Below the pieces are notes generated by a model. It did not search any database. It was not told the DNA's origin and saw nothing but the letters and a program-made list of their open reading frames with translations. DNA of 64,000 nucleotides, taken from Patescibacteria group bacterium UBA6241. GTDB taxonomy: Bacteria; Patescibacteriota; Minisyncoccia; Phycocordibacterales; Phycocordibacteraceae. Position 1 is the first letter of the stretch. Each line of letters begins with the position of its first letter. Positions 58,632-59,576 of the stretch are shown here, one piece after another. The stretch is from contig DJWB01000001.1 in NCBI GenBank assembly GCA_002441425.1, positions 298,712 to 362,711 of the forward strand, given 5' to 3'. A program made the translations under genes and the position numbers.

Positions 58632-59576
58632 CTAGGCACGAGTGCGAGCAGTGTCTAGGAGTTTCTGTACTGCTTCAGTAACAATAGGGAGCATATCGTC
58701 ATAAAAGTTAAGATCCAGGATGTCTGTGAGTCTGAACCAGCGCGCATCGTCCAGTCCTCCCTTCTTTTCTAGCTTGATCTCCTCATATTCAGACTCTGCG
58801 AGGAAATAGGATACATGCTTGCGCATCTTTCCGTGTTCAGGATGTGAAGCAATGTACTCATTCTCTCCAATCTTGCTGCGTATGGTTACATCAAGACCGA
58901 GTTCCTCTTTAATTTCTCTAACGGTTCCCTCCTCAACATTCTCTCCTTCCTCAATCTTTCCCTTAGAAAGGGTCCAGTGCCCAAAGACATCGTGTACGAG
59001 TGCAAGATAGTACTGGCCTTCATGATGCGCATACACAATAGCGCCTCCAAGCTGCTGCAAGGGCAGGTCTTCCCTACGTACTCGTTCTTTCTTTCCTGTC
59101 TCTTCCTTCCCTGGCTCTCCGAGTTCTTTGTACACGGCTCCAAGTACTCCGTTTACAAAACGCCCTGAGGAATCTCCTCCAAATACTTTGGCAAGTTCAA
59201 TTGCTTCGTTAATAGCAACCTTTGCAGGAACCTGAGAACGATCTGAGAACAGAAGCTCATACAAACCAATACGAAGAATGTTTCTATCAACAGGAGCAAT
59301 ACGGTCTAGCGGCCAATCTGGTGCAGCCTTTGTTATTACCAAATCAAGATCAGGGCGTTTTGCGAGCACTCCCTGAAGGAGCAGTTCCATAAATGGCTTG
59401 TCCGTATCATCTCCTCCAAACTCTTCAACGTTTCTCTGAAGCGCAGTCTCTGCCTCCTCAATAGACGCATTAGACGTGTCCCACTCAAAGAGGGTTTGCA
59501 GAACAACGGAACGAGCAAGATGCCGATTAGCCATAATGAAAAGAGCGTTATAGACAGGATACCCTAAAAACAACAC
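58632..59576 (-). CDS. nusB: NusB antitermination factor fused to C-terminal NUDIX hydrolase (likely start at internal Met, coordinate 59534)
   Basis: NusB: '[13 protein letters not shown]...[27 protein letters not shown]'. Nudix box '[23 protein letters not shown]' (GX5EX7REUXEEXGU) in the C-terminal ~150 aa. Confidence 0.7.
   Translation of the reverse strand: [314 protein letters not shown]

What the first reader, a model, noticed from the sequence alone, without database searches (positions are those of the whole stretch)
58632..59576. NusB fused to a NUDIX hydrolase
The N-terminal ~150 aa are canonical NusB (…[27 protein letters not shown]…). The C-terminal ~150 aa carry a complete Nudix box ([23 protein letters not shown]). 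NusB is normally a stand-alone antitermination and rRNA-processing factor. Fusion to a Nudix enzyme (RppH-like RNA pyrophosphohydrolase, decapping enzyme, or nucleotide-sugar hydrolase) would couple antitermination complexes to RNA 5'-end chemistry. The gene sits among RNA-processing genes (rnhB, rpmF, rnc) and has its own upstream terminator, implying independent regulation.
Basis: seen in the sequence. Interest (0 to 1): 0.55.

Follow-up and report, generated by a model that had tools for sequence, protein, structure and literature searches.

The report
NusB with a tethered Nudix domain
In this ultra-small (Parcubacteria-type) bacterium and its many relatives, the transcription factor NusB carries an extra nucleotide-binding Nudix domain whose binding pocket is always kept but whose catalytic residues are often lost, so it probably acts mainly as a binder.

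Summary
One uninterrupted minus-strand ORF (58632-59534, 300 aa from the ATG; the GTG at 59576 lies inside a terminator hairpin) encodes a NusB domain (1-140), a disordered charged linker and a Nudix domain (about 160-295) with a canonical Nudix box. It is not an artefact: the fusion is a single ORF in all 80 best species hits, in fixed order rnhB-(rpmF)-nusB::nudix-rnc-smc.

The Nudix domain resembles Ap4A/ApnA hydrolases (Aquifex aq_158, Ndx1, CT771, NUDT2), and scores far below the cut-offs for RppH and NudC. Across orthologues the Nudix box is the least conserved part of the domain. The five key box residues are complete in only 17-58% of sampled sets, with many independent losses. The residues matching the NUDT2 phosphate and adenine pocket (K191, Y227, K239, Y278) stay nearly invariant.

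The conserved role is therefore most likely binding of a nucleoside-polyphosphate moiety, such as an RNA 5' end or an alarmone. Hydrolysis is optional and probably retained in this copy. The gene has its own conserved promoter-like element and a BoxA-core motif just before the ATG, and is probably co-transcribed with RNase III. I found no paper describing the fusion. It is a new variant of a known kind, of moderate interest.

The parts
58632..59534 (-). nusB::nudix coding sequence (300 aa plus stop), starting at the ATG
   Evidence: ORF list and translation. Homologues start at MANRH. It is a single ORF in 80/80 related loci.
59115..59534 (-). NusB domain (residues 1-140)
   Evidence: Pfam PF01029 E 2.9e-35. 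TIGR01951 scores 129 bits, above its cut-off. PDB NusB chains match at E 1e-20 to 1e-15. Foldseek gives TM 0.88 to NusB in the NusB-NusE-BoxA complex 3R2C.
59049..59114 (-). Charged Lys/Glu-rich linker (residues 141-162)
   Evidence: AlphaFold pLDDT is below 50 for residues 141-151, and pTM of 0.49 indicates no fixed inter-domain packing. Mean pairwise identity is 0.55.
58656..59048 (-). Nudix domain of the Ap4A/ApnA-hydrolase type (residues 163-293)
   Evidence: Pfam PF00293 E 2.6e-15. The best PDB sequence hits are CT771, Ndx1, aq_158 and NUDT2. Foldseek gives TM 0.90 to 3I7U. Pocket residues K191, Y227, K239 and Y278 align with NUDT2 K42, Y82, K89 and F128.
58893..58961 (-). Nudix box [23 protein letters not shown] (residues 192-214), canonical in this copy
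   Evidence: Regex hit at 58961. Among orthologues this is the least conserved part of the domain. A canonical box with canonical spacing occurs in only 12/81 species-level sequences.
59573..59599 (-). Intrinsic-terminator-like hairpin (12 bp, 8 G-C) plus T-run, downstream of rpmF and upstream of nusB::nudix
   Evidence: Hairpins with different stem sequences sit at the same place in 47/78 related loci.
59547..59561 (-). -10-like promoter element(s): TATCCT (59556-59561, homologous to the TATACT/TACTCT of relatives) and TATAAC (59547-59552)
   Evidence: Upstream sequences of the related loci listed side by side. TAYNCT lies 10-32 nt before the ATG in 49/79 loci against about 3% expected. The consensus sigma-70 scan itself did not call it.
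59540..59546 (-). BoxA-core-like motif GCTCTTT, ending 5 nt before the ATG
   Evidence: GNTCTTT lies within 30 nt of the nusB::nudix start in 43/80 loci, against 0-1 per 9-69 starts of the other genes tested and 1.7% background. Its spacing from the -10-like element has a mode of 9 nt. The BoxA consensus GYTCTTTAANA is taken from PMC5725501.
57913..58596 (-). rnc (RNase III), probable operon partner immediately downstream
   Evidence: Pfam Ribonucleas_3_3 plus dsrm. It is 35 nt downstream here. It is present downstream on the same strand in 78/80 loci, and the gap is 0 or negative in 19 of them.
59625..59975 (-). rpmF (L32, with a C-terminal extension), conserved upstream neighbour
   Evidence: Pfam Ribosomal_L32p at residues 9-58 of 116. 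Synteny.
60023..60646 (-). rnhB (RNase HII), conserved upstream neighbour
   Evidence: Pfam RNase_HII. Synteny.

Best explanation
This is the NusB of the Parcubacteria/Paceibacteria (Minisyncoccia) lineage.

Architecture: a canonical NusB domain is joined by a disordered, charged linker of about 20 residues to an Ap4A/ApnA-hydrolase-type Nudix domain. It is encoded as one ORF that has been fixed across the lineage. It is transcribed from its own promoter just after the rpmF terminator and is probably co-transcribed with RNase III.

Inferred mechanism:
- The NusB part does the usual job. Together with S10 it binds BoxA in the nascent pre-rRNA leader and nucleates the antitermination and processing complex.
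- The tethered Nudix domain uses a conserved pocket (K191, Y227, K239, Y278) to hold a nucleoside-polyphosphate moiety. The most likely ligand is the 5'-terminal triphosphate or Np4-type cap of the RNA that NusB is bound to. A free Ap4A-type nucleotide is the alternative.
- In this window's copy all catalytic residues are present, so it can probably hydrolyse that ligand. Across the family hydrolysis is dispensable and binding is the conserved function.
- A BoxA-core motif a few nucleotides from the predicted 5' end of its own short leader suggests that the protein also represses its own mRNA.

Shown here: the architecture, its distribution, the synteny, the conservation pattern, the fold and the upstream motifs. 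Inferred: the ligand, the RNA 5'-end target, catalysis and autoregulation.
For: Domains and fold:
- Domain assignments and NusB-family membership.
- AlphaFold model with pLDDT 80.8 and a disordered linker.
- The Nudix domain is closest to Ap4A/Ap6A hydrolases (3I7U TM 0.90, 1VC8 0.85, CT771 0.79). The NusB domain is closest to NusB in NusB-NusE-BoxA complexes (TM 0.87-0.88).

The fusion is real and widespread:
- 120/120 of the nearest 90%-identity clusters carry both Pfam domains.
- 57 of the best 150 50%-identity representatives found with the Nudix part alone also contain NusB.
- The best 80 of at least 575 GTDB species hits are all full-length single ORFs from Kaiser-, Adler-, Lloyd- and Nomurabacteria, Paceibacterota and Minisyncoccia.
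- In a profile search all 8000 candidates scored E <= 1e-20, and the top 120 are all fusions.

Synteny: rnhB-(rpmF)-nusB::nudix-rnc-smc in essentially all loci. The gap to rnc has a median of 35 nt and is often an overlap.

Catalysis is dispensable:
- The set E198/R206/E207/E210/E211 is complete in 37/121, 33/81, 7/42 and 70/120 sequences.
- The substitution patterns are many and distinct (EG..DE, RV..EE, RA..EE, RK..EE and others). At least 15 state changes are needed on a tree built without the box columns.
- Mean pairwise identity of the box is 0.55, the same as the linker. The rest of the Nudix domain is at 0.68-0.81 and NusB at 0.75.
- Stand-alone relatives keep the box in 16/18 cases, against 7/41 fused representatives (Fisher p = 2e-7).

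The pocket is kept:
- K191, Y227, K239, Y278, W187 and W266 are invariant in the 48, 84 and 50 members of three samples that lack the full catalytic set.
- They align with NUDT2 K42, Y82, K89 and F128. The phosphate-binding and adenine-stacking roles of those residues are described in PMC4734340, and the signature aromatic residue downstream of the box in PMC2425470.

Precedents and biochemical context:
- Non-catalytic Nudix domains that still bind Ap4A or ADP-ribose exist: CF Im25 (PMC2425470) and NrtR (Foldseek rank 5).
- Nudix enzymes that hydrolyse Ap4A-type compounds also act on pppRNA and Np4N-capped RNA (PMC9283932).

Upstream elements. BoxA-mediated autoregulation of Nus-factor genes is documented in PMC5725501.
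Against: - There is no biochemical or expression evidence of any kind. The ligand, the RNA target and catalysis are inferred only from homology.
Its numbering agrees with PMC4734340.
- The fraction of orthologues with intact catalytic residues is substantial (up to 58% in one sample). Hydrolysis may therefore be the main function in many lineages, including this one.
- Variants that lack only the first two glutamates might keep some activity.
- The BoxA-like motif matches only the 7-nt core of the gamma-proteobacterial consensus. The rRNA-leader BoxA of these organisms was not available for comparison. The motif could instead be a gene-specific initial-transcribed or translation signal.
- Whether this is the only NusB in the genome was not tested beyond the 64-kb window and the 12-kb loci.
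Confidence: 0.45

Rival explanations
1. The Nudix domain is an active RppH-like RNA pyrophosphohydrolase or decapping enzyme, and the purpose of the fusion is to perform 5'-end chemistry on transcripts bound by the antitermination complex. One version is ppp-to-p conversion of the pre-rRNA leader to license processing or decay. Orthologues with altered boxes would be either still active or degenerate exceptions.
For: This copy has a perfect Nudix box. The full catalytic set is retained in 17-58% of sampled orthologues. The nearest solved relatives are real hydrolases. Nudix enzymes with ApnA activity such as RppH also process pppRNA and Np4N caps (PMC9283932). The gene is operon-linked to RNase III.
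Against: RppH and NudC family models score far below their cut-offs, and RppH-type chains match only over the box. The box is the least constrained segment of an otherwise strongly conserved domain. It has been lost repeatedly, even among sequences 85-87% identical to this one. That pattern is not expected if hydrolysis were the selected function.
Confidence: 0.2
2. A small-molecule sensor. The Nudix domain binds a free nucleotide signal (an Ap4A/ApnA-type alarmone, or another nucleoside polyphosphate) and thereby modulates NusB activity. This would tie rRNA antitermination and processing to nucleotide or stress status, by analogy with NrtR, where a non-catalytic Nudix domain senses ADP-ribose for a DNA-binding domain.
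For: The Ap4A-hydrolase-type pocket is conserved where the catalytic residues are not. NrtR's Nudix domain is among the best structural matches. CF Im25 binds Ap4A at micromolar affinity without hydrolysing it (PMC2425470).
Against: The model gives no confident inter-domain contact through which an allosteric signal could pass (pTM 0.49, disordered linker). Whether these organisms make Ap4A-type signals is unknown. Many orthologues would destroy the signal because they keep the catalytic set.
Confidence: 0.18
3. A functionally uncoupled fusion. A housekeeping Ap4A/NTP-cleaning Nudix gene became fused to its neighbour nusB in a streamlined genome. The two domains work independently, and the Nudix activity decays in lineages where it is not needed.
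For: The flexible linker and lack of predicted domain packing. Stand-alone relatives of the Nudix domain with intact boxes exist. Catalytic residues have been lost repeatedly.
Against: If the domain were simply becoming useless, the whole domain should decay or be deleted. Instead the non-box parts are as conserved as NusB (0.68-0.81 against 0.75). The pocket residues are invariant in box-deficient members. Every one of the 80 best species hits keeps the full-length fusion.
Confidence: 0.1
4. A protein-interaction module. The Nudix fold has been recruited as a docking surface, for example for RNA polymerase, S10, RNase III or a missing Nus factor such as SuhB, and nucleotides are irrelevant.
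For: Non-enzymatic, protein-binding Nudix domains are a recognised class (PMC5389931). The catalytic residues are dispensable.
Against: The residues that stay invariant are those that align with the phosphate- and adenine-binding positions of Ap4A hydrolases. That points to a nucleotide ligand rather than a new protein interface.
Confidence: 0.07
5. An artefact. Two adjacent genes (nusB and a Nudix gene) have been merged by a sequencing or assembly error or by a miscalled ORF.
For: None found. A few short Nudix-only database entries exist, but they look like fragments from short contigs.
Against: The same continuous ORF occurs in 80/80 independent species-level assemblies, in 120/120 of the nearest clusters from five different sources, and in the top 120 profile hits.
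Confidence: 0.01

Closest known systems
NusB (transcription antitermination factor; E. coli, Aquifex, Thermotoga and M. tuberculosis structures)
   Same: Residues 1-140 are a full NusB. TIGR01951 scores above its cut-off. The Foldseek alignment to the E. coli NusB chain 3D3B is 41% identical, and the fold gives TM 0.87-0.88 to NusB in NusB-NusE-BoxA/dsRNA complexes. The N-terminal R-x3-R...Q-x-L-F motif is conserved, with F16 at the position of E. coli Y18.
   Different: Classical NusB is a stand-alone protein of about 140 aa. Here it carries a linker and a Nudix domain totalling about 160 aa. The gene neighbourhood (rpmF upstream, rnc-smc downstream) also differs from the E. coli ribE-nusB arrangement, which I give from my own knowledge.
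Asymmetric Ap4A/ApnA Nudix hydrolases (Aquifex aq_158 3I7U, T. thermophilus Ndx1 1VC8, C. trachomatis CT771 4ILQ, human NUDT2 3U53)
   Same: These are the best full-length sequence and structure matches. Shared motifs are (H)W-x3-KG before the box, the aromatic residue downstream of the box, RK-x-V-x-YFLAE, and a second aromatic residue near the C-terminus. Together they correspond to NUDT2 K42, Y82, K89 and F128.
   Different: Those are free-standing, catalytically active enzymes with conserved boxes. Here the domain is fused to NusB and its box is often degenerate among orthologues, or carries a 5-residue insertion in the Gx5E loop.
RppH / NudH (bacterial RNA 5' pyrophosphohydrolase and Np4N decapping enzyme)
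   Same: Both are Nudix enzymes with ApnA-type chemistry that act on RNA 5' ends (PMC9283932). This is a plausible functional analogue for box-intact copies such as this one.
   Different: This protein is not a family member. The RppH NCBIfam models score 16-27 bits against cut-offs of 116-241. Bdellovibrio RppH (3FFU) matches only over the box.
Non-catalytic Nudix modules: NrtR (ADP-ribose-sensing transcription regulator) and CF Im25/NUDT21 (pre-mRNA 3'-processing factor)
   Same: In both, a Nudix fold lacking some box glutamates binds a nucleotide (ADP-ribose or Ap4A) without hydrolysing it, and serves a nucleic-acid-binding or RNA-processing machine (for NrtR; PMC2425470, for CF Im25). This matches the box-deficient majority of NusB-Nudix orthologues.
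   Different: The window's own copy keeps a complete box. The partner domain (NusB) and the lineage are different. No ligand is known here.
RsmB/Sun (16S rRNA m5C967 methyltransferase with an N-terminal NusB-like domain)
   Same: It is the known precedent for a NusB-fold RNA-binding domain fused to an enzyme domain that acts in rRNA biogenesis. The NusB part of this protein hits the RsmB models over their N-terminal 130 residues.
   Different: In RsmB the NusB-like domain is a paralogue and the enzyme is a methyltransferase. Here the NusB orthologue itself carries the extra domain, which is a Nudix fold.
BoxA-mediated autoregulation of Nus-factor genes (suhB in E. coli; ribH-nusB in Pseudomonas; PMC5725501)
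   Same: A BoxA-core sequence (GYTCTTT) lies within 50 nt upstream of the start codon of a Nus-factor gene and is conserved across species.
   Different: Only the 7-nt core matches the gamma-proteobacterial consensus GYTCTTTAANA. The motif abuts the start codon and the predicted 5' end. It has not been validated, and the lineage's rRNA BoxA is unknown.

Membership tests
NusB (TIGR01951 / PF01029) | Profile score above the curated family cut-off | tested here: met
   TIGR01951 scores 129.1 bits against a cut-off of 88.35. PF01029 scores 122 bits against 23.1 and covers profile positions 3-133 of 133.
NusB (TIGR01951 / PF01029) | All-helical NusB fold superposable on NusB of NusB-NusE-BoxA complexes | tested here: met
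   The AlphaFold model has helices only in residues 1-138. Foldseek gives 3R2C_A TM 0.88 with rmsd 2.0, 3R2D_B 0.87 with 1.8, and 3D3B at 41% identity.
NusB (TIGR01951 / PF01029) | N-terminal basic RNA-binding segment, and an aromatic residue at the NusE-contact position (E. coli Y18) | tested here: met
   The alignment to E. coli NusB places F16 opposite Y18 and R4/R8 in the Arg-rich N-terminus. In the diverse fusion set R4 is nearly invariant, R8 is the top residue in at least 80% and F16 in 60-80%. The functional meaning is inferred.
NusB (TIGR01951 / PF01029) | Heterodimer with S10 (NusE) that binds BoxA RNA and supports antitermination | not testable with these tools
   This needs biochemistry. 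No rRNA operon or rpsJ gene was examined.
NusB (TIGR01951 / PF01029) | Sole NusB orthologue of the genome | tested here: inconclusive
   There is no second NusB-like sequence in the 64-kb window or in the 12-kb related loci.
Nudix hydrolase superfamily (PF00293) | Nudix alpha/beta/alpha fold | tested here: met
   PF00293 E 2.6e-15. Foldseek TM is 0.90 to 3I7U and 0.85 to 1VC8.
Nudix hydrolase superfamily (PF00293) | Nudix box GX5EX7REUXEEXGU with its metal-binding glutamates | tested here: met
   Met in this copy (residues 192-214). Among orthologues it is complete in only 37/121, 33/81, 7/42 and 70/120, and canonical spacing is kept in 12/81.
Nudix hydrolase superfamily (PF00293) | Divalent-cation-dependent pyrophosphohydrolase activity | not testable with these tools
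   An enzyme assay is required.
Ap4A/ApnA hydrolase subfamily of Nudix | An adenine-stacking Tyr/Phe about 17 residues after the box in NUDT2, plus a second aromatic residue and phosphate-binding Lys residues | tested here: met
   Y227, Y278, K191 and K239 align with NUDT2 Y82, F128, K42 and K89. The roles come from PMC4734340 and PMC2425470. The residues are at least 97% conserved in 81 species-level sequences. This rests on alignment only.
Ap4A/ApnA hydrolase subfamily of Nudix | Asymmetric hydrolysis of Ap4A (or longer ApnA) | not testable with these tools
   An enzyme assay is required.
RppH (RNA pyrophosphohydrolase, NCBIfam PRK00714 models) | Profile score above the curated cut-off | tested here: not met
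   NF001936 scores 26.6 against 118, NF001938 16.6 against 116, and NF001934 16.1 against 241.
NudC (NADH pyrophosphatase / NAD-cap decapping) | Profile score above the cut-off, and the SQPWPFPxS motif downstream of the box | tested here: not met
   NF001299 scores 30.2 against 158. No SQPWPFPxS-like motif is present in the translated sequence.
Non-catalytic Nudix modules (NrtR / CF Im25 type) | Loss of two or more box glutamates with the fold retained | tested here: not met
   Not met by the window's copy, which has all its glutamates. The most common incomplete patterns among its orthologues lack both E198 and E207, for example MEGDE, ARVEE and PRVEE. Other variants have lost only one residue.
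BoxA-dependent Nus-factor autoregulation | A BoxA (GYTCTTTAANA in gamma-proteobacteria) within 50 nt upstream of the start codon of a Nus-factor gene, matching the organism's rRNA BoxA | tested here: inconclusive
   The core GCTCTTT lies 5 nt before the ATG. It is positionally conserved in 31-43 of 80 loci against about 1-2% background. The 3' half of the consensus is not matched, and the rRNA leader was not available.

The most novel reading that the evidence does not exclude
The Nudix module is a reader, and in some lineages an eraser, of RNA 5'-end status (5'-ppp or Np4N cap), tethered to NusB. Assembly of the rRNA antitermination and processing complex would then depend on, or hold on to, the 5' end of the nascent leader. 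Repression of the protein's own nearly leaderless mRNA, whose BoxA-core motif starts a few nucleotides from the 5' end, would work the same way. That would be a previously unknown layer of Nus-factor function, and a bacterial example of a pseudo-enzyme Nudix domain used as an RNA-end sensor.
Probability: 0.2. Interest if true: 0.75.

Novelty: new variant of a known kind. Interest (0 to 1): 0.5.

Why it matters
NusB is one of the most conserved and best-studied bacterial transcription factors, and is regarded as a small stand-alone protein. A whole major lineage of ultra-small bacteria has permanently attached a nucleotide-binding Nudix domain to it, keeps that domain under strong constraint, and repeatedly discards its catalytic residues. 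This points to an accessory function of the rRNA antitermination and processing machinery that model organisms do not show, such as 5'-end or alarmone sensing.

It also gives a natural series of active-looking and inactive-looking variants for testing how Nudix enzymes turn into binding modules. On the practical side, public annotation calls these proteins simply "NusB" and hides the second domain.

The proteins are small and can be made recombinantly, so the hypothesis can be tested even though the organisms are uncultured.

Tried and rejected
- Artefact or frameshift: rejected. The fusion is a single continuous ORF in 80/80 species loci and in hundreds of database clusters.
- GTG start at 59576 (314 aa): rejected in favour of the ATG at 59534.
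- RppH and NudC membership: rejected on curated cut-offs.
Repeated with the closer alignment A3.
- AFDB fold library: not available, so no UniProt-level survey of the architecture was possible.
- CT771 paper: not held. Substrate-pocket roles were taken from PMC4734340 and PMC2425470 instead.
- Cluster look-ups for the taxonomy of divergent fusions and stand-alone relatives: very few names returned.
- Literature searches combining NusB, Nudix and CPR/Parcubacteria terms: no paper describing the fusion. The Nudix-clan review PMC5389931 does not mention NusB.
- Rfam and tRNA scans of the window: nothing found, so no rRNA leader or BoxA reference was available. No 16S site occurs in the window or the loci.
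- Consensus sigma-70 scan: no promoter between the terminator and the ATG. The -10-like element emerged only from comparing the upstream sequences of the related loci.
- The motif GCTCTTT alone is not significantly enriched in the window (25 found against 16 expected). Only its positional conservation across loci is meaningful.
- dN/dS: not attempted, because synonymous sites would be saturated at these divergences. Region-wise amino-acid identity was used instead.
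Full report
**Observation**

The protein that starts at the ATG at 59534 is 300 aa long. Pfam places a NusB domain at residues 7-136 (E 2.9e-35) and a NUDIX domain at 183-282 (E 2.6e-15). The NCBIfam equivalog model for NusB (TIGR01951) scores 129 bits against a cut-off of 88.

The sequence [23 protein letters not shown] (residues 192-214) fits the Nudix box GX5EX7REUXEEXGU at every position. The GTG start used for the reported coordinates lies inside a 12-bp hairpin (59599-59573), and every homologue begins at MANRH. 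The true start is therefore the ATG at 59534.

**Is the fusion real?**

Yes.
- All 120 nearest 90%-identity clusters carry both Pfam domains. They come from NCBI, JGI, ENA, Logan and MGnify assemblies.
- A scan of one genome per GTDB species found at least 575 relatives. The best 80 (64-87% identical) each cover query residues 1 to about 296 in a single tblastn segment, that is, one uninterrupted ORF.
- A profile built from diverse fusions retrieved 8000 of 8000 scored candidates at E <= 1e-20. The top 120 are again all two-domain proteins.
- An exhaustive HMMER search with the Nudix part alone found 57 fused proteins among the best 150 representatives at the 50%-identity level, with Nudix identity down to about 32%.

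The record titles name Parcubacteria, Paceibacterota/Paceibacteria, Kaiser-, Adler-, Lloyd- and Nomurabacteria, and Minisyncoccia. These taxa belong to the Parcubacteria group of the Patescibacteria. Many MAGs are titled "uncultured Candidatus Saccharibacteria", yet they interleave with these taxa at 64-86% identity, so I treat that label as generic. Public annotation calls the proteins simply NusB.

**Context**

The neighbours were verified with Pfam:
- RNase III: 57913-58596
- L32: 59625-59975
- RNase HII: 60023-60646
- a short SMC: 55099-57315

The order rnhB-(rpmF)-nusB::nudix-rnc-smc holds in essentially all 80 loci. The distance from the nusB::nudix stop to the inferred rnc start has a median of 35 nt (35 nt in the window). 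It is zero or negative in 19 of 78 loci, so the two genes are probably co-transcribed.

Upstream, a GC-rich hairpin plus T-run follows rpmF. Hairpins with unrelated stem sequences occupy the same place in 47 of 78 loci.

Listing the upstream sequences side by side revealed two further conserved elements:
- A -10-like TAYNCT (often preceded by TG) lies 10-32 nt before the ATG in 49/79 loci, against about 3% expected.
- A motif G(C/T/A)TCTTT(C) lies about 9 nt further on and ends 2-7 nt before the ATG. It is present in 43/80 loci (31/80 for GYTCTTT). At the starts of rnc, rpmF, smc, rnhB and the pilin gene it occurs 0-1 times, and the background is 1-2% per 30 nt.

The composite of the two elements is specific to this leader. 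GYTCTTT is the core of BoxA, whose consensus in gamma-proteobacteria is GYTCTTTAANA. BoxA elements within 50 nt of the start codons of Nus-factor genes are known to mediate autoregulation (PMC5725501). Only the core matches here, and no rRNA leader of this lineage was available. Autoregulation is therefore a reasonable inference, not a demonstration.

**Structure and family**

The AlphaFold model has a mean pLDDT of 80.8. It shows an all-helical N-domain, a disordered segment at 141-151 and an alpha/beta C-domain. The pTM of 0.49 means the relative orientation of the two domains is undefined.

The N-domain superposes on NusB from the NusB-NusE-BoxA and dsRNA complexes (TM 0.87-0.88). Its Foldseek alignment to E. 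coli NusB (3D3B) is 41% identical.

The C-domain is closest to these structures:
- Aquifex Ap4A hydrolase (TM 0.90, rmsd 1.9)
- Thermus Ndx1 Ap6A hydrolase (TM 0.85)
- Chlamydia CT771 (TM 0.79)
- mycobacterial MutT1/Rv2985 diadenosine polyphosphatase
- human and C. elegans Ap4A hydrolases
- the non-catalytic, ADP-ribose-sensing Nudix domain of NrtR, at rank 5

RppH-type and NudC-type models score far below their curated cut-offs. The "RppH-like" label is at best a functional analogy, not family membership.

**The key comparative result**

Within this family the Nudix box is not the conserved part of the Nudix domain. The five key residues are the Gx5E glutamate E198, then R206 and E207, then E210 and E211. 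The table shows how often all five are present.

| Sample | Complete set |
|---|---|
| Close homologues plus window | 37 of 121 |
| Species-level sequences plus window | 33 of 81 |
| Diverse representatives | 7 of 42 |
| Sequences nearest the family profile | 70 of 120 |

- Only 12 of the 81 species-level sequences have a box with both canonical residues and canonical spacing. Many others carry a 5-residue insertion in the Gx5E loop.
- The replacements form many distinct patterns (EG..DE, RV..EE, RI..EE, RA..EE, RS..DE, RK..EE, DK..EE and others).
- On a neighbour-joining tree built without the box columns, at least 15 state changes are required.
- The nearest species hits L002-L004, at 85-87% identity to the window protein, have already lost E198, R206 and E207.
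- Mean pairwise identity of the box is 0.55, equal to that of the disordered linker. The strands before the box are at 0.81, the rest of the domain at 0.68, and NusB at 0.75.
- Stand-alone relatives of the domain keep a strict box in 16 of 18 cases, against 7 of 41 fused representatives (Fisher p = 2e-7).

**What is conserved instead**

W187, K191, Y227, K239, W266 and Y278 are invariant in the 48, 84 and 50 box-deficient members of three samples. They are strongly conserved in the diverse set as well.

In a pairwise alignment with human NUDT2 (27% identity), K191, Y227, K239 and Y278 fall on K42, Y82, K89 and F128. According to PMC4734340, K42, Y82 and K89 line the P1 phosphate site, and Y82 and F128 stack on the adenine ring. 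PMC2425470 describes the Tyr/Phe downstream of the box as a general signature of Nudix Ap4A hydrolases.

The pattern, with the pocket kept and the metal-binding glutamates optional, is the same as in CF Im25. That RNA-processing factor has a Nudix domain lacking two box glutamates and binds Ap4A at micromolar affinity without hydrolysing it. NrtR shows the same pattern.

**Interpretation**

I conclude that this is the lineage's NusB orthologue with a permanently tethered Nudix domain of the Ap4A-hydrolase type. The conserved function of that domain is to bind a nucleoside-polyphosphate moiety.

NusB sits on BoxA near the 5' end of nascent leaders, and the linker allows a reach of tens of angstroms. 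Nudix enzymes with ApnA chemistry such as RppH also act on pppRNA and Np4N-capped RNA (PMC9283932). The most likely ligand is therefore the 5' end of the bound RNA, and a free alarmone is the main alternative.

The window's copy has every catalytic residue and is probably an active hydrolase. That cannot, however, be the reason the fusion is maintained across the lineage.

The operon link with RNase III fits a role in pre-rRNA leader handling. The BoxA-core motif sits a few nucleotides from the predicted 5' end of the gene's own short leader, which has no evident Shine-Dalgarno sequence. This suggests autogenous control.

All mechanistic steps beyond architecture, distribution, conservation and fold are inferences.

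**Novelty**

I found no paper that mentions a NusB-Nudix fusion. A comprehensive review of the Nudix clan does not mention NusB. Both domains, non-catalytic Nudix modules, NusB-like domains fused to rRNA enzymes (RsmB), and Nus-factor autoregulation are each known.

I therefore rate this as a new variant of a known kind. It is present in thousands of public sequences but has not been interpreted. Interest is moderate: surprising to a Nus-factor specialist and directly testable in vitro, but functionally unproven.

Noticed in passing
window 59540-59561 (minus strand); the same position in L001-L080: A conserved -10-like element (TAYNCT; TATCCT here) is followed about 9 nt later by a BoxA-core motif (GCTCTTT) that ends 5 nt before the nusB::nudix ATG. 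This implies a very short leader with no evident Shine-Dalgarno sequence, and possible NusB autoregulation.
   Followed up: partly
window 59625-59975 (minus strand): Ribosomal protein L32 is 116 aa long. Pfam covers only residues 9-58, and the rest is a Lys/Glu-rich C-terminal extension. tblastn matches of about 350 nt in close relatives suggest the extension is conserved.
   Followed up: partly
window 55099-57315 (minus strand): The SMC homologue is only 738 aa, whereas typical SMC proteins are about 1,100-1,200 aa. SMC_N matches the two ends (residues 1-723) and no hinge-domain hit was returned. The matched span of about 2.2 kb is the same in the related loci.
   Followed up: partly
window 1-64000: No tRNA gene (ARAGORN) and no Rfam family at gathering threshold was found anywhere in the 64 kb. 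That is unusual for a stretch this long in a small genome.
   Followed up: no
window 60589-61083 and 61347-61994 (minus strand); L051-L078 between rnc and smc: Type IV pilin-like genes with the N-terminal methylation motif flank the cluster. In several related species a pilin-like gene is inserted between rnc and smc.
   Followed up: no
window 57418-57903 (minus strand): A 161-aa ORF that looks hydrophobic lies between rnc and smc and has no Pfam match. It had no tblastn match in any of the 80 related loci.
   Followed up: no
proteins P0224, P0139, P0217, P0240 and P0258: The same Nudix subfamily occurs in other architectures: sigma70_r4 plus DnaA_C helix-turn-helix plus Nudix (P0224, 379 aa), an Endonuclease V fragment plus Nudix (P0139, possibly chimeric), and tandem double-Nudix proteins of about 290 aa.
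   Followed up: no
L024 about 5836-5870 and L039 about 3187-3220: In these two loci the promoter-like element and GYTCTTT motif sit in front of a different start (ATGCCCGACACA...) about 165 nt upstream of nusB::nudix. The region immediately before nusB lacks the motif.
   Followed up: no
Nudix box loop in L001, L005, L008 and others; P0012, P0017 and others: A recurrent 5-residue insertion (for example GDKPEVANE) in the Gx5E loop gives Gx10E spacing while REIxEE is retained. It occurs in about two-thirds of the species-level sequences that keep all catalytic residues. Its effect on activity is unknown.
   Followed up: partly
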